From Prorocentrum cordatum (taxonomy: Eukaryota): DNA of 64,000 bases. The notes under the pieces are model-generated. The model was not told where the DNA came from. It saw only the letters and a program-made list of their open reading frames with translations, and made no database searches. Position numbers and translations under genes: made by a program. Of this stretch, positions 20,194 through 56,959 are shown piece by piece. The DNA lies in contig CAUYUJ010000112.1 in the NCBI GenBank assembly GCA_963575745.1, forward strand, positions 1-64,000, in the 5' to 3' direction. Position 1 is the first letter of the stretch; the number at the start of each line of letters is the position of its first letter.

Positions 20194-23135
20194 CTATGAA
20201 AGAGAACGGCAATGCTGCCGCACAGTGGCCCTCCAGTTCTGGAAAGAGCCGCTACCATTCGACAGCGTTGCTGCTAGCCGGTCCTCGTCCTGCTGCGCGA
20301 CGCTCAGTGCATGCGCCCTGACTCTCTGGCCCCACGACACCCTTGGGCGCCCTCGTTTTCGAGCGCCCCCTGGGCGTGCCAACATCGTGGATGAAGGTCG
20401 AAATACGGAGCGTCGTGCGATAGATGCGTCGGGCATCATGGCCACCCGCCCAAACAAACACATCTGTTTGGCGACTAGCTGGTCTGCCAGCGGGCTCGAC
20501 GACGCTGTCTTCAGAACTTCCTGGTTGGACACCCGGGATATCATCGGATGCGGATGCCCCATATCTTCCGCAGGCATTGCACATGGAACGAATTGATGCG
20601 AGAAAACTCTGCCTTATTCAATCGCTCCGTCTCCAAACTGTAGAGCAATTTGGCGACGACACACGCTTCGTATATGCGTTGCTTCCTTGCCCGACTCAAC
20701 GAAGAATGGCTCTATACCTTCGTCAGAAGCGAAAAGGAGTTGCGCGCCTCGCCCACCCTGCGTGCCACGGCGCACCTGGCACTGCCGCTGGTGGTGAGCA
20801 GACCGCCCAGATAGATGTGCTGCTCTGTCTTTGGGATGGGCTGGCCGTTCGGATCGTAAATGGGTGGCGGATCTCCAACTTGCAGCACCACGGTCTTGTC
20901 CCAATTAGGCAATAATCCATACGGGGCGGCCCGCGAGAGCAGGCTGTCGAGGGCGTGCTGCAAACAAGCGGACGACTTGCAAATCAATGCTGTATCGTCC
21001 GCGTACTCGACGTCATCTGTCCGGCTGCCTGCGTGCTCCCAATTCACGTCCTCCATGATGACAGACAAAACGATGATAAACAGGTGTGGCGAGAGCGGAC
21101 AGCCCTGGGCAATGCCAGCGGACTGCTCTCTGGCACCAGATTCCTTGCCAGAGTCGCGCACGGTGAAGGTTTTGTTCTGGTAGATGGATGCGACCATGTC
21201 CACGTATTCCTCAGGTAAGCCAAACCTGCGCAGCGCCACTTGCATGGCGCCGGGGTCGATGCGATCGAAAGCCTTGGACCAATCTAGGAGCAACACTGTC
21301 AGTTCTCCATGCTTGAGATCCTGGGCGGCGTCCAGCATCCGCTGCACGGTGAGAATGGCCAAGTGGGCGCCGCGACCACGTCGGAAGCCGAACTGGTTGT
21401 CGCGGAGCCGGCCCTCCACCCCTCCAGATCGCAGTCGCTGCAGGATGAGGCTCGCAAGCACCTTGTATCCAACTGCCAGTAGAGATATTGGACGGTAGTT
21501 TGAAGGCAGCGCAGGGTCACCTTTCTTGAAAAGCGTGGTGACTGAGAAGTGCGACCAGTCCTGTGGAATTGACTTCGAATGCCAGCACTGGTTGCACAAA
21601 CGCAGCAATATGTCGAGGGCGCCCGCACTCCTGCCAAGCACAGCCCAGAAATCGGGCGGCACGTTGTCAGGCCCACTTGCTCTGCCTCTCCGCAACCTCG
21701 ACAAGACTGATTTGAGCTCCGCTGTCAAGAACTCTCCGCAGGGTATGTCAAGAGTTGCCCCAAGTTTCGGCTCCTCTGGCACGCCGACACCTGCGCCTGG
21801 ACTACGTTGCCACTGCACGTTCTGCAAATATGTCGCCAAAGTGTCTGCCCTCTCGCTGGAATCCACCAGGTCGCCGGCCGAATTGCGAAGTCTGCCTTGT
21901 TGTTGGCGGGCAGACCCCTTCCGAAGGCGCTTGATTGCAGGCCAACCTCCGTCCGCCAAGTCTGCTTCCAACCATGCTGCCCGGTCATTCTTGGCCGCTG
22001 ATTTGATTTGCTTGTTCAGCGAGGCCTCCAGTGCGAACTGCCCCAAAACCCGTGCGTTGTTCCGCAGCTCGATGAGGTCCAGCGTGGCCGTTCGAATCCA
22101 CGGCCGCTTTGCCGTGACTGGGCGAACATGCAAGGCGGCATCTGCAGCAGCCTCCATGTTGGACCGCACTTCCTCCGCCAGTGCATCGACGCAACCATCT
22201 CCAGCGCCGCGCAAGATGTCCTGTCCCAACTCGACAAAACAGTCGCAGAATTTCTTCGCCACTGCAGCCTCCCCGAGACTCCGGGTGTCCCGCGTATCCC
22301 GGGATTCCCTGGGAAGCTTCTTCGGGATGTGCACGCCTAGGTCTGCGATGACAACGAAATGATGCGATTGCAGGGCAATGTCCCGCCTGCTCCGGACTGC
22401 GCGAATAACTCCAAGCCACTTTTCATGCACAAGTAAATGATCAATCTCAGCGAACTTGTTTGCCGTGATTTCGTCCATAGGTCGTGCAGAGATGTCGTAG
22501 TACGTGACTTGTTGGTGCACGGGGCGCTCGTGGAAGGTGTTCGCCACGACCATATTCATAGACCTGCAGGTTTCCACCAGGAGCTCCCGATTGCTCGCAG
22601 CATCTATATTGGCTTCGCGATTGCCGTAAACGTAAGGCCCTAGAACGTCGTGCTCCGCAGCGCCTCGTTTGTGAATCCTGCTGTTGAGATCGCCACACAC
22701 GACAATAGGTCCGTGGACTTTGGTTTTCTGCACAACGTCTTCCAAATCATTGAAGAAATCCTGTCGCTCCTCAGCCGGGCGCCCGTTGTGAGGGGCATAG
22801 CCTGTAATGAAACACATTTGTCCTCTTTCAACTCGGACCCGCAAGCTCGCTAACCTGGGACTGTGTTGCGCGAAGCCCAATACAGCACAACGGACGCGAG
22901 GAGACACCAAGAAACCTACTCCGACATGCTCTCTCTCATTCAGGCTCCCGCCAGATAGAATGACAAAGAAATCGTTGTGCAGAAAATATGCTGAACCAGC
23001 CAAGTGCGTTTCTTGGAGTCCCAGCACATCTATGTTCTCTGCCTTCAGAACCAACTCAATATGTTCCAACTTTGTTTCGTCCATCTGCTTCTCGTCTGAA
23101 AGGCCCTCCACGTTCCATGAGGCAAGCCGTCCCAT
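20194..23135 (-). CDS. LINE ORF2: apurinic-type endonuclease plus reverse transcriptase, with a premature stop at ~20712 and a 1-nt frameshift at ~20555
   Basis: EN motifs SWNVEGL, LQETH, GYAPH, GDLNSR, EIDHLL. RT motifs SGPDNVP, YRPISLL, QFGFRRGR, LDWSKAFD, GIAQGCPLSP, YADD, YLG. C-terminal RKRGRPRVSW. Confidence 0.95.
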
Positions 23136-23277
23136 GCAGATCGGTCTTGGGGTCGTTCTGCTCCGGAATTGCCTTTGGCAGTTCCGTCGTTCTTGAAAAC
23201 GGTCAGGGAAAGCATTCGGTGGCAAGGGTAAGGTTGGTGAAACCTCCAGGGCGGTCGCATGAATACCTACCTCACCA

Positions 23278-24369
23278 TTACAAGTGATGCGCAAAACTCC
23301 CCAGAGTGTGAAACGCCGATGCGCCGTCCGAGTTCCTAGCGCTTCGTAGGAGCTTGTCCTGGCCGGCCTTGAGGATCTTTTCCCAATCCTCGCTCTTCAG
23401 GTAGCCCTCCCACCCGGCCTCGTACTCAACCTTGAGGGCCCCTTCCTCCACGACCGCCGCCAGGACCTTTTCGTCCCCCATGTGCAGGGTGAAGGCCTCC
23501 TCGTCCACCCACATGGAAGACTTCACGAACCCCCACTGTGAAAGCATCCACTTCGCTCCGAAAAGAACCTGGCGTGCAACGCGCGTGCCTAGGGGCTGCT
23601 CTTCTTTGGCCCAAACACGTTTCCCGTCAGCTGTCTCATGTTTCAGGCTCCTGATCGTCGCAACCGCTGTGTCGCGATCTTCTTGTTTAGGGAATTCTGC
23701 GAACAACAGCCCCTTGAACTCCCCTTTCACGAAGTAGTCAGAAGCTGGCGTAACATACCCCTCCCACAATCGATCTTTTATCCACTTGGATGCTGACCAC
23801 TCGTCCCCCATACTTTCCAAACCTCCAAAAACTGCAATCAACTTGGTGTCCTCGGTCCCATTCTTCATGAGGGCGCGCATCTGGGCCTCCAGCTGCACAA
23901 TTTGGTTCTGCAAGTCCTGCTGGAGTTTGCTGTCCTGCGGGTTCCCGCCCTTCCTCCCCCCTGGGCCCACGGACGCCGTGAAGGTCTGAAGATCGTCATT
24001 CACAGCCTGGATCTTGTTCATGAGGTCCTTGTTCTTCTCCTCCATCCCCTCCCACATATTGTCCATGTTCGACTCCACTCTTGCCACGTCGTCCTGGAGC
24101 TCCCGGACGGTGTCCAAGACTGGCCGGATACGTTCATCAAACTTCTTGTCCAAGAGCTCCGCGATAGCACTGAGGGTGACAGGCTGTTGAGCTGCATCCG
24201 GAGGTGTAGAAGGAGTGGTAGCCGCTGGTCTCGTCTCCTCCTCGCCCTCGTCCCCGTCCATGGTGTGCAGCGGGCTGAACAGCCGCTGTCGAACGTCGCG
24301 TTCGCCTCGTAGGGGCGTGCCTGGCTGCCGCGTGTGAGGCCGGCTCCCGGCGCCGGCGCCGTCAGCCAT
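23278..24369 (-). CDS. LINE ORF1 (coiled-coil plus possible RRM-like region), ~363 aa
   Basis: Intact ORF directly upstream of ORF2 and inside the TSD. Heptad-rich segment VRELQDDVARVESNMDNM...LQNQIVQLEAQMRAL; KGLLFAEF resembles RNP1. Confidence 0.8.
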   Translation of the reverse strand: MADGAGAGSRPHTRQPGTPLRGERDVRQRLFSPLHTMDGDEGEEETRPAATTPSTPPDAAQQPVTLSAIAELLDKKFDERIRPVLDTVRELQDDVARVESNMDNMWEGMEEKNKDLMNKIQAVNDDLQTFTASVGPGGRKGGNPQDSKLQQDLQNQIVQLEAQMRALMKNGTEDTKLIAVFGGLESMGDEWSASKWIKDRLWEGYVTPASDYFVKGEFKGLLFAEFPKQEDRDTAVATIRSLKHETADGKRVWAKEEQPLGTRVARQVLFGAKWMLSQWGFVKSSMWVDEEAFTLHMGDEKVLAAVVEEGALKVEYEAGWEGYLKSEDWEKILKAGQDKLLRSARNSDGASAFHTLGSFAHHL

Positions 24370-24457
24370 TGCGCGCGGCTGGGGGCGAGGGAGAGAGAGC
24401 GATAACGGGATCGCGGCGGGAGAGATGGAGCGGACGGAGCGGCCTCTCACTCCAAGG

Positions 24458-24491
24458 CTTGAGCCAACCGCTTGAGCCAATCGCTTGAGCC
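24458..24491 (-). other. Three tandem spliced-leader relics at the LINE 5' end
   Basis: The minus strand reads GGCTCAAG-CGA-TTGGCTCAAG-CGG-TTGGCTCAAG, the 3' half of DinoSL (DCCGTAGCCATTTTGGCTCAAG). Confidence 0.75.
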
Positions 24492-24689
24492 CCCCCCCCG
24501 CCTGATCAAAAGGCCGCCCCCCCTCTCTGCACCCCCCTACGCGCGCCACTGACACCGGCATCACCCGAGCATGCTGCTTATGCTATGTTTGCGTCGCCCC
24601 CCCCCCCCCCCCAGGGAGCGACTCGCGCTCTCTCAGAAGTCTAATCATATGTGCGCAAGCTTGGGCCACGCACAGTGCACCTCTGGTAA

Positions 24690-43446: not shown

Positions 43447-44997
43447 TTACCTAACAGCGAAGACTGATAGGATTCTGGTAGGGTCAAAAGAGAGCATCAT
43501 GACTCCTCAGGGGGGTCTGGGCGGAACCCGGACAGAATCCGGCGGCTGCCGTCGGAGCCCAAATCGCTTGGGACATCCTTGCAAAATCGCTTTTGGCGCT
43601 CCCAGAACGCCATTCCCGGGCTACATTTTGGATGCCCGGAGCCAACGTAGGCCACTTCGTGCTCTTGGACTTCCCAGAACACCATTCCCGGGCCACATTT
43701 TGAATGCCCGGAGCCAATTGTAGGCCACTTCGTGGTCTTCGAGGTCCCAGAATTCCTTTCCTGGGCATGATTTTGAATGCTCGGAGCCAACTGTAGGCCA
43801 CTTCGTGGTCTTCGAGGTCCCAGAATTCCTTTCCTGGGCATGATTTTGAATGCTCGGAGCCAACTGTAGGCCACTTCGTGGTTTTCGAATTCCCAGAATT
43901 CCATTCCTGGGCATGATTTTGAATGCTCGGAGCCAACTGCAGGCCACTTCGTGGTCTTCGAGTTCCCAGAATTCCATTCCTGCGCATGATTTTGAATGTC
44001 CGGAGCCAACTGTAGGCCGAGGCTGAAGGCAGACTGAGGCTGAGGCTGAAGCAGGCAGAGGCTGAAGGCTGAGGCTGAGGCTGAAGCAGGCTGAGGCTGA
44101 GGCAGGCTGAGGCTGAGGCTGAGGCTGATGCAGGCTGAGGCTGAGGCAGGCTGAGGCTGAGGCCGAGGCTGAAGGCAGACTGAGGCTGAGGCTGAAGCAG
44201 GCTGAGGCTGAGGCTGAGGCAGGCTGAGGCTGAGGCTGAGGCAGGCTGATGCTGAGGCAGGCTGAGGCTGAGGCTGAGGCTGATGCAGGCTGAGGCTGAG
44301 GCAGGCTGAGGCTGAGGCCGAGGCTGAAGGCAGACTGAGGCTGAGGCTGAAGCAGGCTGAGGCTGAGGCTGAGAGGCAGGCTGAGGCTGAGGCAGGCTGA
44401 GGCTGAGGCCGAGGCTGAAGGCAGACTGAGGCTGAGGCTGAAGCAGGCTGAGGCTGAGGCTGAGGCTGAGGCTGAGGCTGAGGCTGAGGCTGAGGCAGGC
44501 TGATGCTGAGGCAGGCTGAGGCTGAGGCTGAGGCTGATGCAGGCTGAGGCTGAGGCAGGCTGAGGCTGAGGCCGAGGCTGAAGGCAGACTGAGGCTGAGG
44601 CTGAAGCAGGCTGAGGCTGAGGCTGAGGCAGGCTGAGGCTGAGGCTGAGGCAGGCTGATGCTGAGGCAGGCTGAGGCTGAGGCTGAGGCTGATGCAGGCT
44701 GAGGCTGAGGCAGGCTGAGGCTGAGGCCGAGGCTGAAGGCAGACTGAGGCTGAGGCTGAAGCAGGCTGAGGCTGAGGCTGAGGCAGGCTGAGGCTGAGGC
44801 AGGCTGAGGCTGAGGCTGAGGCAGGCTGAGGCTGAGGCTGTGACTGCGACTGCACTTGCCACTGCGACTGTCATCGCGAATGCGACTGCGACTGCGAGAA
44901 CAGCAGAATTCTACAACTGGATTATCATCTGAATCTTGAGGGGAATGCTTCCAGATATGCTCCTACACATCGCTGTTAGGTTGCTTTGCCGGGATAA
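43447..44997 (+). mobile_element. Composite satellite-carrying element, copy A
   Basis: Head TTACCTAACAGCGAAGACTGATAGG, 73-bp tandem array, (GCTGAG)n-derived array, conserved tail ending TCGCTGTTAGGTTGCTTTGCCGGGATAA. Confidence 0.85.
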
Positions 44998-44999
44998 TT

Positions 45000-45386
45000 T
45001 AGGGCTGTAGGGCTATAGGGCCATATGGGCTGTATGGCTATTGGGCTATAGGGTAATAGAGCTACAGGGCTATAGGGCTATAGGGTATAGGGGTATAGGG
45101 CTATAGAGCTATAGGGCTATACGGCTATAGGGCTATATGGCTATTGAGCTACAGGGCTATAGGGCTATAGAGCTATAGAGCTGCAGTGTTATGGGGCTAT
45201 ATGGCTATAGGGCTATAGGGCTGTAGGGCACCCCCGGGCACCCGGGCACCCCCGGGCACGCCCGGGCACCCGGGCACCCGGGCAGCCGGGCAGCCGGGCG
45301 CCCCCGGGCACCCGGGCGTGCGGCGAAAATCGGCGGCAAATCTAACCTAACCGAATGAATCCGCTACGACCTCCACAGTAGACGAA

Positions 45387-45430
<44 letters not shown>

Positions 45431-45452
45431 ACTACTACTACTTCTACTACTA

Positions 45453-45528
<76 letters not shown>

Positions 45529-45821
45529 CACTAATAACAATAATAGTAACACAAATGATAATAATAATAATAATCAGATTACTGAACCTGATGGGGGAAA
45601 TAAGAAGACGAATAATAGTAGTAATACGAATAACAATAATACTATTAAGAATAATATTAATACTACAAAGAATATTCATTATAAAATAGTATTAATAATA
45701 ATCATAATAATAATGCTAATAATAATCGTAATAATAGTAGTAGGAATAATAATAATAAAAGTAAGAAGAGGAAGAATAATAATAATAATAAGAAGAAGAA
45801 GAATACTACTACTAATAATAA

Positions 45822-45852
<31 letters not shown>

Positions 45853-45905
45853 AAGAAGAAGAAGAAGAAGAGGAGGAAGAAGAAGAGGAGGAGGAGGAGG
45901 AGGAG
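45000..45905. repeat. (AGGGCTAT)n, (CCCGGGCA)n, (CTA)n, (TAA)n and (GAA)n simple repeats
   Basis: Directly visible. Confidence 0.93.
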
Positions 45906-45997
45906 GCGGGCGCTCTCGTCTTCCGAGGATGCGCCTGGCCCGGGGGGGGGCAGGTGCGTTGGCGGTGCGCCTTCCCTGAAATCCGGGCGCTGCATTT

Positions 45998-47733
45998 TTA
46001 CCTAACTGACGACTGATAGGTTTCTAGTAGTGTCAAAACTGAGCATCTTGACTCCCCAGGGGGGTCTGGGCGGGTGCCGGAGAGAAGCCGCGGAAGTCGT
46101 TTTAAGCAAACAATTACACACTTCGTAGTATTTGAGGTCCCAGAACTCCACTCCCGGGCCACATTCTCAATGGCCGGAGCCAACTGTAGGCCACTTCGTG
46201 GTCTTCGAATTCCCAGAACTCCATTCCCGGGCCACATTTTGAATGCCCGGAGCCAACTGTAGGCCACTTCGTGGTCTTCGAGTTCCCCGAACCCCATTCC
46301 TGGGCATGATTCTGAATGCCCGGAACTTCGTGGTCTTCGAGTTCCCAGAATTCCAATCCTGGGCATGATTTTGAATGCCCAGGGCCAACTGTAGGCCACT
46401 TCGTGTTCTTCGAGTTCCCAGAATTCCATTCCCGGGCCACATTTTGAATGCTGAGGCAGGCTGATGCTGAGACTGAGGCAGGCTGAGGCTGAGGCAGGCC
46501 GAGGCTGAGGCCGAGGCTCAAGGCAGACTGAGGCTGAGGCTGAGGTGAGACTGAGGCTGAGGCTGAGCTGAGGCTGAGGCTGTGAGGAGGCTGAGGAGGC
46601 TGAGTGCTGGAGGCTGAGGCAGGCTGAGGCAGGCTGAGGCTGAGCCGAGGCTGAAGATGAGGCTGAGGCTGAGGCTGAGGCTGAGGCTGAGGCAGGCTGA
46701 GGCTGAGGCTGAGGCAGGCTGAGACTGATGCAGGCTGAGGCTGAGGCTGAGGCTGATGCAGGCTGAGGCTGAGGCAGGCTGAGGCTGAGGCCGAGGCTGA
46801 AGGCAGATTGAGGCTGAGGCTGAGGCAGGCAGGCTGATGCTGAGGCAGAGGCAGGCTGAGGCTGAGGCTGAGGCTGATGCAGGCTGAGGCTGAGGCAGGC
46901 TGAGGCTGAGGCAGGCTGAAGGCAGACTGAGGCCGAGGCTGAAGCAGAGGCTGAGGCTGAGGCAGGCTGAGGCTGAGGCTGAGGCTGAGGCTGAGGCAGG
47001 CTGAGGCTGAGGCAGGCTGAGGCTGAGGCTGAGGCTGAAGCAGGCTGAGGCTGAGGCTGAGGCTGAGGCTGAGGCTGAGGGCTGAGCTGAGGCAGGCTGA
47101 GGCTGAGGCTGAGGCTGATGCAGGCTGAGGCTGAGGCAGGCTGAGGCTGAGGCTGAGGCCGAGGCTGAAGGCAGACTGAGGCTGAGGCTGAAGCAGGCTG
47201 AGGCTGAGGCTGAGGCTGAGGCTGAGGCAGGCTCTGAGGCAGGCTGAGGCTGAGGCTGAGGCATGCAGGCTGAGGCTGAGGCAGGCGAGGCTGAGGCCGA
47301 GGCTGAAGGCAGACTGAGGCTGAGGCTGAAGGCAGGCTGAGGCTGAGGCTGAGGCAGGCTGAGGCTGAGGCAGGCTGAGGCTGAGGCTGAGGCCGAGGCA
47401 GGCTGAGGCTGAGGCTGAGGCTGAGGCTGAGGCTGAGGCTGCGGGCAGACTGAGGCTGAGCTGAAGGCAGGCTGAGGCTGAGGCAGGCTGAGGCAGGCTG
47501 AGGCTGAGGCATGAGGCTGAGGCTGAGGCTGAGGCTGAGGCTGAGGCAGGCTGAGGCTGAGGCAGGCTGAGGCTGAGGCTGAGGCTGATGCAGGCCACTG
47601 CGACTGTCATCGCGAATGCGACTACGACTGCGAGAACAGCAGAATTCTACAACTAAATTCTCATCTGAATCTTAAGGGGAATGCTTCCAGATATGCTCCT
47701 ACACATCGCTGTTAGGTTGCTTTGCCGGGATAA
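45998..47733 (+). mobile_element. Composite satellite-carrying element, copy B
   Basis: Same head, arrays and tail as copy A. Confidence 0.85.
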
Positions 47734-47875: not shown

Positions 47876-48557
47876 CCCCCACCCACCCACCCCTCCCTTG
47901 AGCCAGCACCCCCTGCTTCGTTTCCCCTCATTTCGTCGGCCCTCCCCTGAGAGTCGAGTTTGCGATCAAGTTCGCAGCATCGCAGAACTTCACGACTGGA
48001 GCCCTAATTGGGCCTCATCTTTCTGCGACATTGTTCGAAACTGGGCGAAAGCGCCCAGCCTAAACACAGTGCAACGCCCAGATCTCAGGGTCCTTTCAGC
48101 CAGGGCTGTACAAGACCCCCTGGGGCTTTCCAATGGGGCTCCACATCGCTCCGCCTCGCCTCGCCCTGGCTCGAGCCACGCAGCCCGAGCGACTGCCCTG
48201 GATTCGTGGGGCGGCGGGGAGCCAGCTGAAGTCGGTGCTCAGAGAGAGGCGTTCCAAGAGACTCCCTGGGCCGCCCGCTCGGGCAGGCTCCCAGCCACGT
48301 TCTTTGAGCACTGCCATCGTCCTTTCAGCGGGCACGGTGCGGAACGCAGACTGTTGTGCTTCCCCTTTCCCTCCTGTGCTCCAGCTCTTGCGCCTCCCTC
48401 CCTTCTGCTCCTGCTGCTGGTGTTGCTCCTCCTCCTCCTCCTCCTCCTCCTCCTCCTCCTCCTGGTCCCCCCGCTTCTCCTCCTGCTTCCGCTGGTGCTC
48501 CACCTCCTTCGCCGTTTCCTCTTTCTTCTGGTGCTGCTGCTCCTCCCTCTCTTCTCC

Positions 48558-48600
<43 letters not shown>

Positions 48601-48636
48601 CCTCCCCCTTCCCCGCTTCCTGCTGCTGCTGCTGCT

Positions 48637-48676
<40 letters not shown>

Positions 48677-48704
48677 GTGGTGGTGGTGCTGCTGCTGCTG
48701 CTGG

Positions 48705-48739
<35 letters not shown>

Positions 48740-48849
48740 CTCCTCCTCCTCCTCCTCCCTCCTCCTCCTCCTCCTCCTCCTCCTCCTCCTCCTCCCCCTT
48801 CCGCTCTCCTCCTGCTTCTGCTCCTCCTCTTTACCCTCCCCCGCTTCCT

Positions 48850-49234
48850 GCTGCTTGTTGGTAGACCAGACATGCATTTTCACCACATCTGCTAGCACCC
48901 GGCCACCTTTGGAGTGTGCCACTGGGGTTTACGCCATCACCGCTTGGTGCTAAATGGGCTGCAGCACGCATGGCATTTGCGCACTATTCCTCTGAGCAGA
49001 TCCACGCTAGCAAGAGTATGACTCCGGCTACTTTCGGGAACGTTGTTAACATGACGCCAAGCTTAGCAACAGCAAGGCAAAAGTTGAGAGAAAGAGAGAT
49101 GAGATAGAGGACCCAAGACGCAAGAGAAACGAGAAGTGAGCTGAGCAAGTTATGGTACAACGTGAGATTTACATGCAGGACGGGTGTGCAATCAACTCTC
49201 TCACAGAAAGCTGCTTCTACTGCGGCTGCTGCTG
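48850..49234 (-). repeat. 3' direct terminal repeat (pseudo-LTR) of the PLE
   Basis: About 14 substitutions relative to 54038-54422 by manual count; no TG...CA ends. Confidence 0.92.
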
Positions 49235-49467
49235 TACCCGCCACAACAACCGCAGCAGCTTGAAGGGCTACACAACATAGTCCAAGGGCTGCGGCGAGAC
49301 TTGCGTATCCTCGTAGCAGTGTGATCCGCTCGACCCCCATCGAGCAGACATCGAGGAGTAGGATTCCTGGTAGGAGAACGACCAGGCACGTTATCTTATT
49401 CACTCGGCGCAACGTCATGGTTGGCGATTTTGATCTTGTAGTGCTGTATTCTTGTTAGGTTTATCTT

Positions 49468-50470
49468 CTAGGCCATGGCGCCACAGCCCTTGCCAGTAAC
49501 GAACTGGATGAGCTGCTCGATTTTCCTCGCTTTGGTCTTCCCGATGGACGTGCTCAAGTTGTTTTTCTTCAAGATCGTGTCCAACTTCGCCTGCGTTGTT
49601 TCCTCGGCCAGGCGCGAAATGAAGCCGGCACTTTCTTGCGGCCAGCCCTCCAATGAAGTGTCGGGGCAGACGACTTTGGCTACGTACTTCAGTGCTTTTG
49701 CTTCCGTGTGTTCCGCCTCCTCGGGCTCCTCATCCTGGCTGGGGACGGCCAAGGTACGCAGGCCCTGCTGGCCACCCGATGGCGTGGCACGACGGTCGCT
49801 CCCACTTGCCCCTGACCTGGCCAGGCCTGCGTTCTCGACGAAATCACCCAAGATGTCATCGAGGCTCTTCTTCGTGGTGCCGTGTTTGGCTGCGACGACC
49901 TCTTTGAGCCTCTCGACGAACTCCTCTTCCGTGTACTTGCGGGCTCCGCCAGGCGGGTTCCCCATCCTAGTCTGCAGGGATTTCACCCACTTGATGACCT
50001 CATCTTCGGGGGGGGGGGGTCTGCTTCTGCATGATCTTGCGGAGCATCTGCTTCATGAGGCCAGATCCGGCGTGGTCGCTGTCCGAATCCTCGTCAGACT
50101 CCGACTCCTCAGACATGGCAAGCCTCTTCGCCATCCTCAAGAAGCGGAAAGGTGCACGCTTGCCGTCACGCTGGCTCCTCCTCCCTTTCTCATCATGCTT
50201 GCTCTTGATCCCCAGGAGCTTGCGCACAGCTGCCTCCGCACCTGCCGTGATCTTTTTCACGAAGGACCGTTCTTGCTCCTCCATGACTGCAGCCTGTTCG
50301 TAGTCATACAGGCGGCGGTTCAAGTCATCGATGCCCGAGATCCCTCCAGCCATCCATAGAGGCTGCTGCGATCCATACGGCGTGTAGCCTATGGACTTGC
50401 CCTTGCCTTTGCCCTTGCCGTTGCCGTTGCCCCCCTGCCCGTACTGGTTGTAGCGGTTCCTAGACCCCAT
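49468..50470 (-). CDS. PLE accessory ORF (~333 aa; GK-rich N-terminus, acidic tract, SAP/HeH-like C-terminus) with one frameshift in a C12 run
   Basis: MGSRNRYNQYGQGGNGNGKGKGKGK...QKQTPPP joins EDEVIKWVKSLQ...AKLDTILKKNNLSTSIGKTKARKIEQL if the homopolymer at 50008-50019 is shortened by one base. Confidence 0.65.
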
Positions 50471-50576
50471 GGGACCGGCAATGGAGCAGCACCAGTGCAG
50501 GGGAGGAGAGTTCTGTACGCGGCGAGGGCCGAGATGGGCTGCAGGCACGATGGGCATAACGGTGCATGAAGAATAT

Positions 50577-53462
50577 TTAGGCTGCTCGGCAGATCCATGC
50601 ATATGTCTCATGGAGAACACGGTGTGTGAGCGCGTAATGTTGAGATCCATCCGCATGCAGAAAGTCCCCCAAACCCTCTCGATGTAGTCCTTGCAGGATT
50701 CGGCCGAAAACCTTGACGACAGCCAAGAATTCTGAGCGATGCTTCCGAGGGATGCTGCGACACGTCTGTGCAAGCCATTGCGGGGGCCACTGCAAGCGCA
50801 ATATCTCACAAACAAGGTCCACGAAAACATCTTGAGCACGGCACGGATCCCATTCGGCCACACTGTTGTGACTGAGAACTCGTTCCAAAACCAAGGGACG
50901 CACATGGTGAAATGAGAGTGTGGCAGACGAGGAGGGGTAATGAGGAAATTTTGCCAACTGGGGTTGGTCTGCCTGTCCACGGGCAAATTCTGCGTTAGGG
51001 AAGAATGGGCACACCTCGTACGATAAGCCTGTCGGCCGGATGTGCGCCTGGAGGTATGTGAGATGGAGGCCCCGACCTTCCACCGTGACCCCGACGTCCG
51101 GGGGCCAGAGCATGCGCACAGCACGTTCAAGGCAACTCTCACAAAAAACCATGCTAAACACGAGACTGTCGTCGACATATAAGATGCCTTGGATGAGCTC
51201 TGCTGTCGAAAACCCCGGGCATGCAAGACCGATGGAGGCACTATACCCTGCTTCCGTGTATAAGCGATGGACGTTCTCTCCAAGGTCGCCCAAGGTGGTG
51301 GACTCAGACATGCTGCCACCCATGGCCACCCCCGCTTACGGCAGAATATGTCTTTGCCCATCATAAAATGGATATCCTTGGAAGCGAACTTGAGAGCCCT
51401 GCGAATATCAGCGAATGTGTATACATCATGATCAGAGGGAACGCGATCTCCACTACGACATAAGAAACCTTTTGCCTTCGAACCCCGTTTGACTGCCACT
51501 GCTGTTTTTCCATGCCGTTTGAAGGCCCGGTCCAGGAACAACGAACACCGACGGACACCACGATCGACGTCAGCATCTTTAAAAATCTGACTGGCGTCAC
51601 ATTTAAGCCAAGATATACACGACTTCGGATTTCCATAAAGGCACCGAAACGTAAATTGGCCATTGGTGCGAAGACGACGGACACGCTCCGCCAACACTTT
51701 CGGTAGGAGACGGGGTTCCCAGAGCGACCAAGAAATATCTCCAGAATGCTGGTTGGCCAAACGTAGCGCTCGGGCAGCCTTCCAGAGGAATCTGCGCTGA
51801 GTGTTCTTGCAATTGGCGACGATCTCCTCGTGGTGTGCATGCGCGCGTGTACACGTGAGTGCGCCACTCGTGCGATCAAGGCACTTGCCTTTGATGGTAA
51901 GGTACGCGTGCGGAAGATGATGTACATGTGTAATTTCGGGGTTCTGGTGCTTTTTGGGGATGTATTTGTCGACCAGTTTTTGAAGACGCCGGGCAACTCC
52001 TTTAGCATGTAGGTGCGGGCAGTGCTCGTAGTGTACGGCGTCTTCGCAAAGCCACTCCCATAGTTTCCAGAAATAGCAACTACGGGGTATGCATACACGT
52101 CTGTGTGGGTCCTTATCCAAAGGTATGAATACATGGTGGGGTAGGGATTCTCGTATATGGCATGCGTGCAGCTCCAGACCAGTAACACAAGGTACATGAG
52201 ATGCGTACCTGTCGCCCCAATGCTCGAATAACCAATGTGCCTTGACGCACCCCGGCAGTTGTAGGTTCGAATGGTATGAGGCAAGCTGCTGGCAAAAATC
52301 GAAGAAGACGAAGGAGAGAGGCAGCGTGGCAGGAACATCCCAGTGCTGATCCAGCCAAACAACGTCATGTGCCAGGATATGCTGGCACCGAGGGTCATGT
52401 AGCAGATATTGACAAACTGTGTGGGAGAAATCTCGACATACTTGCCGCTGTTGTGTAACATGATCAGAAACTTTAGGAGGTCGTACACACAATATTTTTG
52501 TCATTGCACGCAGGTAGAGAGCAATATTGGGAGAACGAATGTTTTGACACACCCAATATACGTATTGTCTAAGCGTGCGACGACAATGTTGTACGAACAC
52601 GTGTGAGGTATCCGGCAATCTGAACAGTTTGATGCTCGACGGGATAATGTTCCCCGACGGCATGAATCGTTCATTTCTTCTTGCGATGACAGCACGTTCA
52701 TACGTCAGGCGTGAGCAGAGAATCCAGACAGATAGGATATATTCGACCAACCAACCATGACGCCATGCGGTATGATAGCGCAGGCGGGTGTGCCGCTCCC
52801 CCAAGTACGTTGCCAGCCAGAGCTCGTAGCCTCTGCGGTAGAGACGCTGCACCACTTCATCTCTGGAAAGATCGTAGCGCTGACGAGCCCAACCCAGCAA
52901 GGCAGCAAACGAGGTATCAATAGACGGGAGACGGCTCCGCATCGCCTGGTCTTCCCGTAGACGGCATATCAAATTGAGTCGAGACTCGTCTGCGAGGGTG
53001 GGATGCGTCCGGAACCTCGGGAACGGGCGTGGTTCCGGACCCTGCCCTCGCTGAGTTGGTCCTGTTCCGCATTGGGTTGGGGGCCGCAGTACTCTAATTG
53101 CCAAGGCCTCGTACTGGGCAGTTCTCGCCTCAGTGCTGAAGACCATGGGTACGAGAACGAACGACCAGGACGAAGACGAACGCCAGGAACGATACCGCGG
53201 GCGTCCAGCTTGGTTTCCTTTCCCGTTGAAGGTGGCCTGGAAATGCTCCCAAAAACGACCTTGCAGCCCAGAACGCACCGTGCGATTGCGCGGATGAGTG
53301 CACTTAGCACGCCCCACATACCAGGTTCCAGACTCCCAGGAGAATGCTGAGTAGCATAATGCTGCATGCGGTTGGGAGGCAGGGTCCCAGACCAAACGAA
53401 CCATTTCAGTAAGATACCGAAGCCCACACTCCCCTCGAAAGTCAGATCGTAGAACGCACATT
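50577..53462 (-). CDS. PLE GIY-YIG endonuclease-reverse transcriptase ORF (one frameshift at ~51330; start uncertain, open frame extends to 53692)
   Basis: GIY-YIG: CYSAF...WYVGRA...GRFWEH...YEALAIRVLRPPTQ. RT: IPLDKD, LPHAYLTIKGK, KCDASQIF, RKRG/AMGGSMS, LYVDDSL, LTYLQ. Confidence 0.82.
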
Positions 53463-54037
53463 TGGAAATTAGGCGTAGCACATCGAAGAAGTACTCGCGT
53501 CCAGTGTTTTCGCTCGTGCTGTTTCGAAATCCATTCACATGCGATAAGGATGCCGATAAAGACCAGGAGGGACAGAACAGCTTGTGATTCACGTTTGTGT
53601 TGCTGCCACGATGTGAGGGTGCACCTAATATTAACTGCTTTTTGGAACCAGTGTTGATCACGTATTGCACGCGTGCTCCATTTAAACACCACTATGCCAA
53701 TCTTACGCGGTGTGGTGGTCGTATCTGATGTAGGTGTGATACTACAATACTGACAGAGACCGGATAGAAGAGCGTGTTCAGATAGACACTGCAGAGCATG
53801 TAGAGGTAGGTGGCGGGGTAGGGAGGGAAAGACTTATCGCACACGACGTGACTGGGCTTCCATGCCTGCCATGTGAGGAAAGCCAGGGGGTAACTGCACA
53901 GGGGGAAAATAAAGAAGCAGACGAGCTTGGGTACAGAGTCAGTGTAGATGAAGAACAACTGGATGATGGTGAAGATGGGGGTGTAGTACTGATAGTAATG
54001 TATACTCCCACGCCAACAATATGGAACTGTGAAAAGC

Positions 54038-54422
54038 GCTGCTTGTTGGTAGACGAGACATGCATTTTCACCACATCTGCTAGCACCCGGCCACCTTTGG
54101 AGTGTGCCACTGGGGTTTACGCCATCACCGCTTGGTGCTAAATGGGCTGCAGCACGCATGGCATTTGCGCACTATTCCTCTGAGCAGATCCACGCTAGCA
54201 AGAGCATGACTCCAGCTATTTTCGGGAACGTTGTCAAAATGGCGCCAAGCTTAGCAACAACAAGGCAAAAGCTGAGAGAAAGAGAGATGAGACAGAGGAC
54301 CCAAGACGCAAGAGAAACGAGAAGTGAGCTGAGCAAAGTATGGTACAACGTGAGATTTACATGCAGGACGCGTGTGCAATCAACTCTCTCACAGAAAGCT
54401 GTTTCTACTGCGGCTGCTGCTG
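54038..54422 (-). repeat. 5' direct terminal repeat (pseudo-LTR) of the PLE
   Basis: Matches 48850-49234 at a constant offset of 5188. Confidence 0.92.
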
Positions 54423-54639
54423 CTGCTCCTTCTCCCCCCTCCTCTTCCTGGCGCTCGCAGAGGTGAAAAGGAATCCGGGTATCGAGAGGGGAGTTGACCT
54501 GGGACGGGAGGGCATGCCGAAGCATCAGTAAGGTGCATTTGGTTTGCTCGGGTCCCATTCTTCCTCCTCCCCTTACAGTCTCCGCCGTTCGCTCCGCCCC
54601 CATTTGCCATACTGCTGTTGCTTCTCTGGCTTCTCTTTT

Positions 54640-55215
54640 ACCTCCCTTCTCCATCCTCCTGCCTCTGCTGCTGCTCATCCAGCTCCTCTCCCTTCCTTCT
54701 CCTCCTCCGTTTCTTCCTCTTTCTACCTCCTCCTCCTCCTTCTGTATTCTGCCTCTTCCTTCCTATCCTCCTTTTCCTCATCCTCCTTCCTCCTCCGTCC
54801 TCCCTCCTCCCTCCTCCCTTCTGCCACCTCCCGCCTCCTCCTCCTCCTCCTCCTCCTCCTCTTCCTCCTCCTCCTCCTCCTCCTCCTCTTCCTCCTGCCT
54901 CCTCCTCCTCCTCCTCCTCCTCCTCCTTCTGTTCCTCCTCCTTCCTCCTCCTCCTCCTCCTCCTCCTCCTCCTTCTGTTCCTCCTCCTCCTCCTCCTCCT
55001 CTCCTAAACGTCACGAGATACGCATTCAAGGACGGGAGAGCCCGTGTGCCCCGCCCGACTCGTCAAGGTTACGCGTACCCTCTAAGGCATAAGCAATACA
55101 CGACAATCCTCCTCTTCCTCCTCCTCCTCCTCCTCCTCCTCCTCCTCCTCCTCCTCCTCCACTCTCGTCTTCTCCTCCCGCCCTTCCTCATCTGCCTCCT
55201 CTGTCTCCTCAACCT
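54640..55215. repeat. (CCT)n-rich tract
   Basis: Directly visible. Confidence 0.93.
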
Positions 55216-56959
55216 CGTCTTACCCTCGTCTTATCCTCTTCTCCCTCGCCCCTCTCGACCCTCCGCTGTCCCTGGCCGCGGCCCGCTTCGCTCCCCGGGT
55301 CGGCCAGGTGGCCAGCGAGACCGTGCAGACGTGCAGCGTCAGTGCTTGCGGAGGAGATCCGGGGAAGCGCGGCATTGTCGGACCGCCTCAAGAAGCTCGG
55401 ATGCAACTCCTGGGAGGTCAAATTCTGACTGTGCCCTGGTCCGAAATCCGGCCTGATCTGGCTTACTCCCGCTGATTCTGGCCTAATCCCGCTTAGTCCC
55501 GTTTCATCCTGTTTAATCCCGCTTAGTCCGCGACCTGATCTAGCGTAACAGCCCCCTAATGGGGATCAATGGGGATCGATCCTCCTTCATCCTTCCGACG
55601 AAGACCTCCCAGCAGCTGCCTCCGAACATACGGTAGGTTCGCGTCGCGTCGACTGGCGGCGACCCCGCCGAGGACGTTCAACGTTGAACGTCGCCAGCGA
55701 CCCCGAATCGGTCGATGTTGACCGTCACGGGGAGCGGCCGATCGTTCAAGGTTGAACGACCCCCGCGGTGTCAGGAACCAGCGCCAACGTCGGCACGACG
55801 CGAACCTGCCGTACCCAGACCTGGGGCGGATTTGCTTTTCCAATCTCGGCGTTGTTCCTCGACGTTGGCCTCCAAGGGGCTGGCTTCGGGCCCCGGGGCC
55901 CTCGGAAACGGATCCAGGAGGGAAACGCTGCCCTGGGGAAGTGGCCGAGACCGCTCTGGGGCCGCGCATCGGAAGCCACATCGTCGGATGTCGGGGTGCG
56001 TGGCGCATTTCTGAAAGAGCCTCGCCGTCGAGGGCTCGAGAAGTTCACCTCTCTTCCTCAGCGTGGACTGGCCGACGTAAAGCGGGGGCGGCTCCGTCCG
56101 CGGAAGGTCGGAGCGAGGTCGGCGGAAGCTGGCGGCAGTAAACGTCCGCCTCCCGCAGAGATGTTATGTTTTTTGGGGGGGCGATTCAGGATTGCAGAGT
56201 CGGGCATGTCCATGTCCACTGCGGAGTGGTGCCCAGGGACCTCGAGAGCCTCTCGAGGACCTGGCGGAGGTGAACGCGGGGCAAGTGCGGGGGGCGATTG
56301 GGGTGCCGGAAAGTGGCCCTCAGGGGGCCGTAACGGGTGTCCACCTCGAGGAAGCGCAAGCATTCATTACGGCGCTTGGATTCCATACAGAGTCGGCGCA
56401 CTCCGTCGCCAGATCAGGCGGTGTGGGCCTCACATTTCGAGGGGTACCTTCCCCGATCCGTGAAACTGGCGGCCACGCGCCAGATTCACAGATCCGTAGT
56501 CCATATTTGCGTGCGCCCAATCAATCGCCACGGTGGCCCCGAAAGGTGCTGGAAAGGTGCGCCTTGTCCTCCCTTGTTTATTCCCTCTACCCCGTCCAGC
56601 TGGTAGGAGTGGTGGGTATTGGCATCTGCCAGCCCCTTAGGGTGGTAAGGTGTCCATCGCCACCTTTCCTGAATGGATCCAGGGCAGGACATCCAGCAGC
56701 TGTGGATGTGGATGACCACCTAGCAGTGCAGTCATGGGATGCTTGCTGTAGATATCATGGAGCTCTTAGATTCAAGTTTTTTTCGATGGCGTTCCTTAAA
56801 GTTTCCGGAAGCCCTCCGCAGTTTTCGGAGTCTTCGGAAGTTTTGGGAGGGTGGTCGTTCTTGATGTCGCCGCCTCCGTCGCCGCCATCCTCGTGGTCGC
56901 AGTTGTAGTCGTGGTGGTCGTCTTTGGCGACGTCGAAGGAGAAAGGGGAATGACGAGGG

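What the first reader, a model, noticed from the sequence alone, without database searches (positions are those of the whole stretch)
49468..50470. Separate accessory ORF downstream of the RT inside the Penelope-like element
Seen: ~106 nt after the RT stop, a second co-oriented ORF of ~333 aa lies inside the terminal repeats. It has an N/G/K-rich start (GNGKGKGKGK), helical and acidic segments, and a C-terminal LDTILKKNNLSTSIGKTKARKIEQL motif resembling a SAP/HeH DNA-binding module. Known: most endonuclease-bearing PLEs have a single ORF. Inference: a dedicated nucleic-acid-binding partner (RNP chaperone or targeting factor), giving a two-gene RT system of possibly undescribed layout.
Basis: partly seen in the sequence, partly recalled or inferred. 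Interest (0 to 1): 0.8.

Follow-up and report, generated by a model that had tools for sequence, protein, structure and literature searches.

The report
SAP-like gene inside Penelope-like retrotransposon
A real but frameshifted small gene for a probable DNA-binding protein sits behind the reverse transcriptase of a Penelope-like retrotransposon, and it looks more like a picked-up passenger gene than an ancestral second gene of the element.

Summary
The sequence is real coding DNA, but it is not an intact 333-codon ORF. The span 50470-49468 is 1003 nt. It reads in one frame to a TGA at 50002-50000 and continues in the next frame after a C12 run at 50019-50008. It lies in a 1.34-kb spacer between the RT stop (50579-50577) and the 3' copy of a 385-nt terminal direct repeat. 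By motifs, the 5.19-kb element has an N-terminal GIY-YIG nuclease followed by an RT (Chlamys/Naiad layout). No HMM library recognised either domain.

The C-terminal half has six small stand-alone relatives (112-198 aa), one from the dinoflagellate Prorocentrum cordatum. Its last ~75 residues fold confidently into four helices. The final helix-loop-helix weakly matches SAP domains (Z 3.8-4.8).

One contig from another copy bridges the RT stop and the ORF start without gaps, so the ORF is not unique to this copy. GC3 is 0.75-0.85 in the ORF against 0.53-0.58 in the RT. The relatives are single-copy and short. Host-DNA capture at this exact position is documented in rotifer Penelope elements. Together these favour a captured, co-mobilised gene over a dedicated partner. 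The RT is also frameshifted here, so this copy is dead as assembled. Verdict: a new variant of a known kind, of moderate interest.

The parts
54038..54422 (-). 5' pseudo-LTR: upstream copy of the terminal direct repeat
   Evidence: blastn self-match, 385 nt, 96.4% identical to 48850-49234; boundaries read
48850..54037 (-). Full retrotransposed unit, 5188 nt, running from the end of the 5' repeat to the end of the 3' repeat
   Evidence: repeat spacing 5188; junction ...caacaagcagc|gcttttcac read
51323..53404 (-). Nuclease-RT ORF, first part (frame 1), from M 53404. GIY-YIG-like motifs at 53356-53306 (CYSAFSWESGTWYVGRA), 53260-53243 (GRFWEH) and 53116-53090. DK motif at 52126-52109. Candidate RT motif A at 51607-51569 or 51544-51515.
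   Evidence: translation, motif coordinates. Motifs read by eye; no HMM hit. Listed sibling differences lean synonymous in this frame.
51323..51325 (-). Frameshift site in the RT: this copy lacks one base that a sibling has
   Evidence: (sequence) and table 4: 'put in behind 51323: G' in X1 record 5. With it the protein reads ...FCRKRGWPMGGSMSES... in one frame.
50577..51335 (-). RT ORF, second part (frame 0): motif B MGGSMSES 51323-51300, ILYVDDSLVF 51185-51156, stop TAA 50579-50577
   Evidence: No difference is listed at the stop in the sibling contig (table 3).
49235..50576 (-). 1.34-kb spacer between the RT stop and the 3' pseudo-LTR, holding the ORF
   Evidence: T content drops to 0.10-0.18 between about 50500 and 49450.
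50000..50470 (-). ORF N-half (frame 1, 156 codons plus TGA). An earlier in-frame ATG is at 50557.
   Evidence: GC by codon position 0.56/0.46/0.75. Weak collinear similarity of residues 88-150 to P0003 residues 2-59 (P=0.006). No relatives found otherwise.
50396..50431 (-). Hexanucleotide microsatellite encoding GNGNGKGKGKGK
   Evidence: Contigs of all 4 runs pile up here (tables 2 and 8).
50008..50019 (-). C12 homopolymer where the reading frame changes
   Evidence: The read-through needs one base skipped. No listed contig piece bridges it.
49468..50019 (-). ORF C-half (frame 2) to TAG 49470-49468; this is the part with relatives
49483..49761 (-). Conserved four-helix C-terminal domain (consensus LLPxxDxxxWP ... 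TxAxLNxxLKxNxLSxSxGxxKxxKIEQL)
   Evidence: alignments A1-A5. pLDDT 80-93 by blocks in the 181-aa model. Mean pLDDT 72 in the 96-aa model.
49498..49596 (-). SAP-like helix / extended loop / helix
   Evidence: SAP-titled rows, Z 3.8-4.8. No Pfam SAP hit.
48850..49234 (-). 3' pseudo-LTR
48388..48849 (.). Flanking trinucleotide microsatellite; a similar tract lies beyond the 5' repeat at about 54423-55240
   Evidence: repeat families D5, D6 and D8; flanks read

Best explanation
The stretch is a real gene for a small, charged protein whose C-terminal four-helix domain ends in a SAP-like helix-loop-helix, so it probably binds DNA or chromatin. It belongs to a small family of stand-alone 110-200-aa proteins seen in a dinoflagellate and in uncultured microbial eukaryotes.

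In this genome a copy sits in the 1.34-kb spacer between the RT stop and the 3' pseudo-LTR of a Penelope-like retrotransposon with an N-terminal GIY-YIG nuclease (Chlamys/Naiad layout). I infer that the element acquired it by capturing foreign, probably host, coding sequence at its 3' end, and that it is now copied along with the element as a passenger.

Shown: it is coding, it has relatives, it lies inside the unit, and it recurs in a second copy. Inferred: the direction of capture, the DNA binding, and any use to the element.

In this copy both genes carry one-base frameshifts at homopolymers (CC versus CCC in the RT; C12 in the ORF). As assembled, the copy is inactive.
For: - **Coding and conserved.** Six small relatives have E from 2.6e-08 to 8.9e-04 in a search of 1.84 billion representatives. 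In the C-half alignment A4, 7 columns are invariant. All 6 relatives map only to 50010-49483.
- **One ORF across the C run.** GC3 periodicity switches frame exactly there. The closest relative, P0003, is collinear on both sides: its residues 2-59 match ORF residues 88-150 with a Smith-Waterman score of 48, against 28.6+-5.1 in 500 shuffles, P=0.006. Its residues 73-198 match 49875-49489.
- **Inside the element.** The ORF lies between the RT stop and the 3' repeat, which marks the element's 3' end.
- **Not unique to this copy.** X1 record 4 (50321-50615, 19 differences, 0 gaps) spans the RT stop and both candidate ATGs. No difference is listed at any of them and no listed change creates a stop. 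A freshwater metagenome, X2, holds pieces at 49429-49579, 50013-50156 and 50214-50364.
- **Foreign origin.** GC3 is 0.75-0.85 in the ORF, against 0.53-0.58 in the RT and 0.64-0.72 in the window's LINE.
- **Relatives look stand-alone.** They are single- or two-member clusters on 1-2 contigs each of 564-1564 nt, or on one 170-kb genomic contig. No long fused form appeared among the 7 hits of the length-agnostic search.
- **Fold.** Four helices, with pLDDT 80-93 by blocks. Tho1 SAP: Z 4.8, rmsd 2.8, 47 of 51 residues, 21% identity. Five SAP-titled rows and one LEM row among the 50 shown.
Against: - No whole genome was available, so no stand-alone host paralogue was shown and the direction of transfer is untested.
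- The GC3 contrast could reflect amino-acid composition or different constraints rather than origin.
- The genomic context of the six relatives could not be seen. They might themselves be element-borne.
- A SAP domain inside the RT of Chlamys-1_pPol (PMC8557442, section 9) shows that such elements can use SAP modules, which fits a dedicated role equally well.
- The SAP assignment is weak. Z stays below 5, generic helical folds score as high (T4 endonuclease VII at 5.1, HAD cap domains at 5.0), and neither Pfam nor a PDB profile search gave a SAP hit.
- The RT and nuclease identity rests on motifs read by eye. Pfam, NCBIfam, PADLOC and PDB sequence searches found nothing.
- X1 may be another strain, so its contig could be an allele or orthologue rather than a paralogous copy.
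Confidence: 0.5

Rival explanations
1. Dedicated accessory gene. The ORF is a functional second gene of this element family, encoding a SAP-like DNA/RNA-binding factor that tethers or targets the retrotransposition complex, for example to its microsatellite targets. It would be translated from the same RNA by reinitiation at the ATG 20 nt after the RT stop, or from a separate transcript.
For: - It lies inside the unit and the RT-stop/ORF-start junction is retained in a second copy.
- The C-terminal domain is conserved over long distances.
- An in-frame ATG lies at 50557, 20 nt after the TAA.
- The element is flanked by trinucleotide microsatellites.
- There is a precedent for SAP within a Chlamys RT and for an upstream gag-like ORF in Chlamys-2_cBra (PMC8557442, section 9).
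Against: - Ten of 11 listed differences in 50557-50377 are non-synonymous, against 13 of 22 in the RT.
- GC3 is unlike the RT's.
- The relatives are short, low-copy and stand-alone as far as can be seen.
- The gene is broken here.
- No expression data were available.
Confidence: 0.3
2. Trapped host gene. The ORF is ordinary host sequence lying between a Penelope-like insertion and a second, solo repeat, and is not part of the mobile unit.
For: - Penelope repeats can frame unrelated sequence (PMC3846280, passages read).
- X1 covers each position with roughly one contig, so its pieces could be an allele or orthologue of this same locus.
Against: - The repeat is exactly the unit's 3' end joined head-to-tail to its 5' end, the usual pseudo-LTR architecture.
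- Both outer flanks are similar microsatellite.
- X1 pieces range from 0 to about 6% different from the window within one element. That fits several copies better than one allele.
Confidence: 0.1
3. C-terminal extension of the RT protein. The ORF is reached by a +1 ribosomal frameshift or was formerly fused. Its frame is the RT's +1 frame, which is almost free of stops across the RT.
For: - The +1 frame of the RT has 0 stops against 5.0+-1.6 expected in 51335-50580, and 4 against 18.3-18.4+-2.8 in 53398-51332, in 2000 synonymous shuffles.
- With the sibling's extra base, that frame runs on into the ORF.
Against: - The RT stop is retained in the sibling.
- The same depletion occurs far upstream, where a fusion would destroy the RT.
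- The window's LINE ORF2 is also depleted in both off-frames, 17 against 27.3 and 19 against 37.9. So the depletion is at least partly a genome-wide codon-context effect.
- Listed sibling differences lean to RT third positions, so the +1 frame is not protein-constrained.
Confidence: 0.05

Closest known systems
Chlamys / Naiad N-terminal-endonuclease Penelope-like elements (Craig et al. 2021, PMC8557442; sections 9 and 10 read)
   Same: GIY-YIG-like motifs lie upstream of the RT motifs. There is a DK motif, pseudo-LTRs from partial tandem insertion, insertion in microsatellite, and no canonical hammerhead ribozyme (no Rfam hit). The 5.19-kb unit falls within the 3.3-8.2 kb given for Chlamys.
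   Different: No downstream ORF is described there: 'orf2', 'second orf', 'additional orf', 'two orfs' and 'downstream orf' each have 0 occurrences. The host here is unidentified. Membership rests on motifs read by eye, and no profile hit or alignment to Chlamys sequences was possible.
Chlamys-1_pPol of Physarum (SAP domain inserted between RT7 and the thumb; PMC8557442 section 9)
   Same: A SAP-type module associated with an N-terminal-endonuclease Penelope-like element.
   Different: There the SAP is part of the RT polypeptide. Here it is the end of a separate reading frame after the RT stop, with stand-alone relatives.
Chlamys-2_cBra of Chara (upstream ORF with gag-like zinc knuckle; PMC8557442 section 9)
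   Same: A two-ORF layout in this clade.
   Different: That extra ORF is upstream and gag-like. Here it is downstream and SAP-like.
Pen1_Av of Adineta vaga: 0.9-1.5-kb captured host spacer between the ORF and the 3' pseudo-LTR; host genes framed by Penelope repeats (Arkhipova et al. 2013, PMC3846280; passages read)
   Same: Same position and size: the spacer here is 1.34 kb. Foreign sequence is carried inside the repeats.
   Different: Those spacers differ between copies that are 90% identical and are not reported as a conserved protein gene next to the RT. Here a copy about 6% diverged shares the junction, and the spacer encodes a conserved protein.
SAP-domain proteins (Tho1, Hcc-1/SARNP, MANF, DEK)
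   Same: The predicted helix / extended loop / helix of about 40 residues superposes on them: Tho1 at Z 4.8, Hcc-1 at 4.5, MANF SAP at 4.1. The best-probability Foldseek rows are DEK. The charged, acidic/basic make-up recalls chromatin proteins (recalled).
   Different: There is no Pfam SAP hit at E<=1 and no SAP hit with a 40-position profile against PDB sequences. The spacing of the conserved G and K residues differs by one from the SAP consensus as I recall it.
Multi-ORF endonuclease-deficient Penelope-like elements (Athena/Terminons of rotifers)
   Same: Penelope-like RTs accompanied by further co-oriented ORFs.
   Different: Those elements are telomeric, lack the endonuclease, are much larger and carry different accessory genes. 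This rests on recall plus a search listing only. I did not read those papers.

Membership tests
N-terminal EN+ Penelope-like elements (Naiad/Chlamys) | GIY-YIG endonuclease N-terminal to the RT in one ORF | tested here: inconclusive
   Motifs read by eye: CYSAFSWESGTWYVGRA, GRFWEH and QYEALAIRV at 53356-53090, upstream of the RT motifs. Pfam, NCBIfam and PADLOC gave no hit.
N-terminal EN+ Penelope-like elements (Naiad/Chlamys) | Reverse transcriptase with the core motifs (A, B, C = YxDD) | tested here: inconclusive
   RGWP(M)GGSMSES and ILYVDDSLVF are present. The best BLASTP alignment to the window's LINE RT falls on its motif 2-3 region, at E 0.27. No RVT_1 hit at E<=0.1. No PDB hit at E<=10. 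The atlas gave only leads at 0.86-0.88.
N-terminal EN+ Penelope-like elements (Naiad/Chlamys) | Pseudo-LTRs from partial tandem insertion | tested here: met
   385-nt direct repeats, 96.4% identical, spaced by one unit length of 5188 nt. The head-to-tail junction was read.
N-terminal EN+ Penelope-like elements (Naiad/Chlamys) | Insertion bias for microsatellites | tested here: met
   Both outer flanks are similar trinucleotide repeats. This is one insertion only.
N-terminal EN+ Penelope-like elements (Naiad/Chlamys) | No canonical hammerhead ribozyme | tested here: met
   0 Rfam matches at gathering score in the whole window.
N-terminal EN+ Penelope-like elements (Naiad/Chlamys) | CxC zinc-finger linker and insertion-in-fingers domain | not tested
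   No reference sequences could be obtained for alignment.
SAP domain (PF02037) / HeH fold | Sequence profile match | tested here: not met
   No SAP hit in Pfam at E<=1 for the ORF or for any of the 7 family members scanned. No SAP chain with a 40-position profile against PDB sequences at E<=10.
SAP domain (PF02037) / HeH fold | Two helices joined by an extended loop, about 35-45 residues | tested here: inconclusive
   Model helices 56-65 and 76-88 with a 10-residue loop. Tho1 SAP Z 4.8 and 4.6, Hcc-1 4.5, MANF SAP 4.1, 1zrj 4.0, 1h1j 3.8, 2do5 3.8, emerin LEM 4.1. Unrelated helical folds score equally.
Small stand-alone protein family P0003-P0008 | Shared C-terminal domain LLPxxDxxxWP ... TxAxLNxxLKxNxLSxSxGxxKxxKIEQL | tested here: met
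   E from 2.6e-08 to 8.9e-04. 38-43% identity over the last 42 residues. Reciprocal tblastn E from 2e-13 to 7e-09.
   One X1 contig bridges the RT stop and the ORF start, and further pieces of the ORF occur in X1 and X2. No listed contig piece links the C-half to an RT, and no genome was available.
   Only the first ~60 codons from the ATG at 50557 (50557-50377) could be compared: 1 of 11 listed differences is synonymous, against 9 of 22 in the RT. 128 further differences were not shown by the tool.
   Frameshift at the C12 run. An assembly error at the homopolymer cannot be excluded.

The most novel reading that the evidence does not exclude
A true two-gene Penelope-like retrotransposon. The N-terminal-nuclease RT would be followed by a SAP-like DNA-binding protein that the element uses to tether its complex to microsatellite targets. 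This protein would be translated by reinitiation 20 nt after the RT stop, or through the RT's +1 frame, which is kept almost free of stops. The small stand-alone relatives in dinoflagellates would then be domesticated or sister copies of this element gene. It would also place Chlamys-type elements in a lineage beyond the green algae, spike mosses and slime mould where they have been described.
Probability: 0.2. Interest if true: 0.7.

Novelty: new variant of a known kind. Interest (0 to 1): 0.4.

Why it matters
Penelope-like elements are the closest retrotransposon relatives of telomerase, and how they choose targets is poorly understood. A DNA-binding module carried as a separate 3' gene would be a third way these elements acquire accessory functions, beside inserted domains and an upstream gag-like ORF. 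It would also give a testable candidate for microsatellite targeting.

If it is only a passenger, it is still a clean example of a Penelope-like element co-mobilising a protein-coding gene next to its own RT. That would extend to another lineage the host-gene dispersal described in rotifers. It also gives a first genomic context to an uncharacterised small protein family of dinoflagellates and related plankton.

Tried and rejected
**Searches with the ORF**
- The word-indexed search with the read-through ORF found nothing.
- With a family profile, the same search returned only 3 proteins that were already in the profile.
- The atlas returned no usable hit for the ORF N-half.
- PDB profile searches with the family gave only chance-level rows.
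- P0002 (2815 aa, E 1.3e-19 from 6 repeated 27-residue stretches) is a tandem-repeat translation on a 590-kb unnamed contig. I set it aside as not comparable.
- BLASTP of the ORF N-half against P0003 gave no alignment. Only a shuffle test gave P=0.006 for P0003, and P=0.07, 0.76 and 0.32 for three other relatives.

**Searches with the RT and nuclease**
- The word-indexed search with the N-part of the RT ORF found nothing. Its words come from the first 500 residues, upstream of the RT core.
- The atlas gave only weak leads for the RT.
- Pfam, NCBIfam, PADLOC and PDB sequence searches gave nothing for the RT or nuclease.

**Related loci elsewhere**
- Metagenome scans gave nothing for the family.
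- With the RT C-part they gave two loci, L001 and L002, which proved unrelated on inspection. L001 holds a kinase-like ORF on the other strand and L002 looks bacterial.
- Viral-contig scans gave nothing.

**Fold searches**
- Foldseek on both models gave no match at E<=0.001.
- The 181-aa model's N-terminal three helices gave only generic rows.

**Expression and trans-splicing**
Its 12-nt core matched at chance level, 5 against 4.7 expected.
- No RNA holder was listed, so nothing can be said on expression or trans-splicing.

**Limits on the sibling evidence**
- No listed contig piece bridges the C12 run, so its true length is open.
The context of the relatives could therefore not be seen.
Full report
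**What is at the coordinates.** On the minus strand, 106 nt after a TAA at 50579-50577, an ATG at 50470 opens a frame that encodes MGSRNRYNQYGQGGNGNGKGKGKGK.... The first frame ends after 156 codons at TGA 50002-50000.

GC by codon position (0.56/0.46/0.75 before the run, 0.58/0.46/0.76 after) and a sliding-window profile both follow frame 1 up to the run and frame 2 after it. This is therefore one coding sequence with a one-base frameshift, or a homopolymer assembly error. It is not two unrelated frames.

The start is not well defined. The frame is open upstream as far as 53689, and an in-frame ATG at 50557 lies only 20 nt after the TAA. The 'N/G/K-rich start' is a hexanucleotide microsatellite at 50431-50396. 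It attracted contigs from all four sequencing runs laid, including two runs that cover almost nothing else.

**The element around it.** A 385-nt direct repeat (48850-49234 and 54038-54422, 96.4% identical) brackets the region. The end of the upstream repeat abuts the start of the internal part exactly one unit length (5188 nt) before the downstream repeat ends. This is the partial-tandem 'pseudo-LTR' architecture. Both outer flanks are similar trinucleotide microsatellites.

The long upstream frame reads, from M at 53404:
- GIY-YIG-like motifs (CYSAFSWESGTWYVGRA, GRFWEH, QYEALAIRV);
- a DK motif (IPLDKD);
- RT-like motifs ending in FCRKRGWP.

It then continues in another frame with MGGSMSES, ILYVDDSLVF and about 190 further residues to the TAA.

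A contig of run X1 that is 97% identical carries one extra base at 51323. That base makes the RT read ...RGWPMGGSMSES... in a single frame. So the window's RT is frameshifted too. Listed differences to X1 contigs in the RT lean synonymous, 9 of 22.

This layout, with the nuclease before the RT, matches the Naiad/Chlamys clade of Penelope-like elements. So do the pseudo-LTRs, the microsatellite target, the absence of a hammerhead ribozyme and the 5.19-kb unit (PMC8557442, sections 9-10 read).

The assignment has a clear weakness. No profile library or PDB sequence search recognised either domain. The best alignment to the window's own LINE RT is only E 0.27. The class assignment therefore rests on motifs read by eye.

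**Is the ORF a real gene?** Yes. An exhaustive HMMER search of 1.84 billion cluster representatives with the 181-residue C-half returned 7 proteins at E<=0.001.
- One is a 2815-residue tandem-repeat translation, which I set aside.
- Six are small proteins of 112-198 residues.
- One of the six is an unnamed protein of the dinoflagellate Prorocentrum cordatum on a 170-kb contig. Five come from ENA or JGI assemblies on contigs of 564-1564 nt.
- Each sits in a cluster of one or two members.

They share a C-terminal domain with the consensus LLPxxDxxxWP ... TxAxLNxxLKxNxLSxSxGxxKxxKIEQL. All six map back only to 50010-49483 in the window.

The closest relative is also weakly collinear with the last 60 residues of the frame-1 half (P=0.006 against 500 shuffles). 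Three others are not (P=0.07, 0.76 and 0.32).

**Fold.** With the seven-sequence alignment, the last ~75 residues are predicted as four helices, with pLDDT 80-93 by blocks. Folded alone, the 96-residue domain has mean pLDDT 72.

Foldseek found nothing at E<=0.001. Its highest-probability rows were the SAP-containing part of DEK. The exhaustive structural search placed the last 40 residues on several SAP-type domains:
- Hcc-1: Z 4.5
- MANF SAP: Z 4.1
- 1zrj: Z 4.0
- 1h1j: Z 3.8
- 2do5: Z 3.8
- the emerin LEM domain: Z 4.1

The second look gave Tho1 SAP at Z 4.8, rmsd 2.8 Å, with 47 of 51 residues aligned.

Unrelated helical folds score as high (T4 endonuclease VII at 5.1, HAD cap domains at about 5). 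Pfam SAP does not hit. A 40-position profile finds no SAP chain. 'SAP-like' is therefore a reasonable working description, not a demonstrated membership.

**Accessory gene or passenger?** Three points favour a link to the element.
- The ORF lies inside the retrotransposed unit.
- X1 record 4 (50321-50615, 19 differences, no gaps) bridges the RT stop and both candidate start codons. No difference is listed at any of them, and no listed change creates a stop.
- Further pieces of the ORF occur in X1 and in a freshwater metagenome, X2.

Four points weigh against a dedicated, ancestral partner.
- Its GC3 (0.75-0.85) is far from the RT's (0.53-0.58) and above the window's LINE genes (0.64-0.72).
- Its relatives look like low-copy stand-alone genes, and no fused form appeared in a length-agnostic search.
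- In the one stretch that could be compared (50557-50377), 10 of 11 listed differences change the residue.
- Rotifer Penelope elements are documented to carry a 0.9-1.5-kb spacer of captured host DNA exactly between the ORF and the 3' pseudo-LTR, and to frame host genes with their repeats (PMC3846280, passages read). The spacer here is 1.34 kb.

Against pure hitch-hiking, a Physarum Chlamys element has a SAP domain inside its RT, and a Chara one has an upstream gag-like ORF (PMC8557442, section 9). Such elements do recruit nucleic-acid-binding modules.

I therefore rate 'captured and co-mobilised SAP-like gene, use to the element unproven' at 0.5. I rate 'dedicated accessory gene' at 0.3, 'trapped host gene outside the mobile unit' at 0.1, and 'RT extension by frameshifting' at 0.05.

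**Limits.**
- No whole genome was available, and the context of the relatives could not be fetched.
- No RNA run was listed.
- The read-laying tool showed only 40 of 168 differences.
- No listed contig piece spans the C12 run.
- dN/dS over the conserved domain, the true state of the two homopolymers, and expression all remain open.
- The supplements of PMC8557442, with its consensus sequences and motif alignments, were not consulted. They could settle class membership.

**Novelty.** I found no description of a downstream, separately framed ORF in an endonuclease-bearing Penelope-like element. The terms 'orf2', 'second orf', 'additional orf', 'two orfs' and 'downstream orf' are absent from PMC8557442. 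Searches gave no such report in their listings. Given known spacer capture and known accessory domains, this is a new variant of a known kind and not a new kind of system.

Noticed in passing
window 53398-50580 (minus strand): The +1 frame of the nuclease-RT gene is almost free of stop codons. It has 4 stops (all TGA) against 18.3-18.4+-2.8 expected in 53398-51332, and 0 against 5.0+-1.6 in 51335-50580, in 2000 synonymous-codon shuffles. All 31 codons ending in TA are followed by C or T. The +2 frames are normal and the SAP-like ORF shows no such effect. With the sibling's extra base, this +1 frame runs on into the ORF. The LINE ORF2 is also depleted in both off-frames, so part of this is a genome-wide context effect. 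The rest is unexplained.
   Followed up: partly
window 20715-24564 (minus strand): A non-LTR retrotransposon. Its 860-aa ORF has an Exo_endo_phos domain (E 3.8e-11) and an RVT_1 domain (E 6.1e-32). It is preceded by a 428-aa ORF with only sub-threshold Pfam hits (DUF1664, FlxA).
   Followed up: no
window 51323-51325: The RT of this copy lacks one base relative to a 97%-identical contig of run X1, which splits motif B between two frames. Another X1 contig lacks 4 nt at 52310 and 2 nt at 52560, so the copies differ by several indels.
   Followed up: yes
window 48984-49418 and 54172-54678 (minus strand): A hydrophobic ORF (144 and 168 aa, ending ...LLLAWICSEE) is open in both copies of the terminal repeat. 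It was not examined further and may be chance.
   Followed up: no
window 43497-47610: Long arrays of short tandem repeats (AGGCTG-like units, ACT and other trinucleotides, an 8-nt GGGCTATA-like array at 45012-45245) create spurious ORFs of 400-500 codons on both strands.
   Followed up: no
window 50396-50432: The hexanucleotide repeat inside the ORF is the only part of the element covered by runs X3 and X4 (other organisms of the same study), with summed word depth up to 3285. Depth at this spot says nothing about the element.
   Followed up: yes
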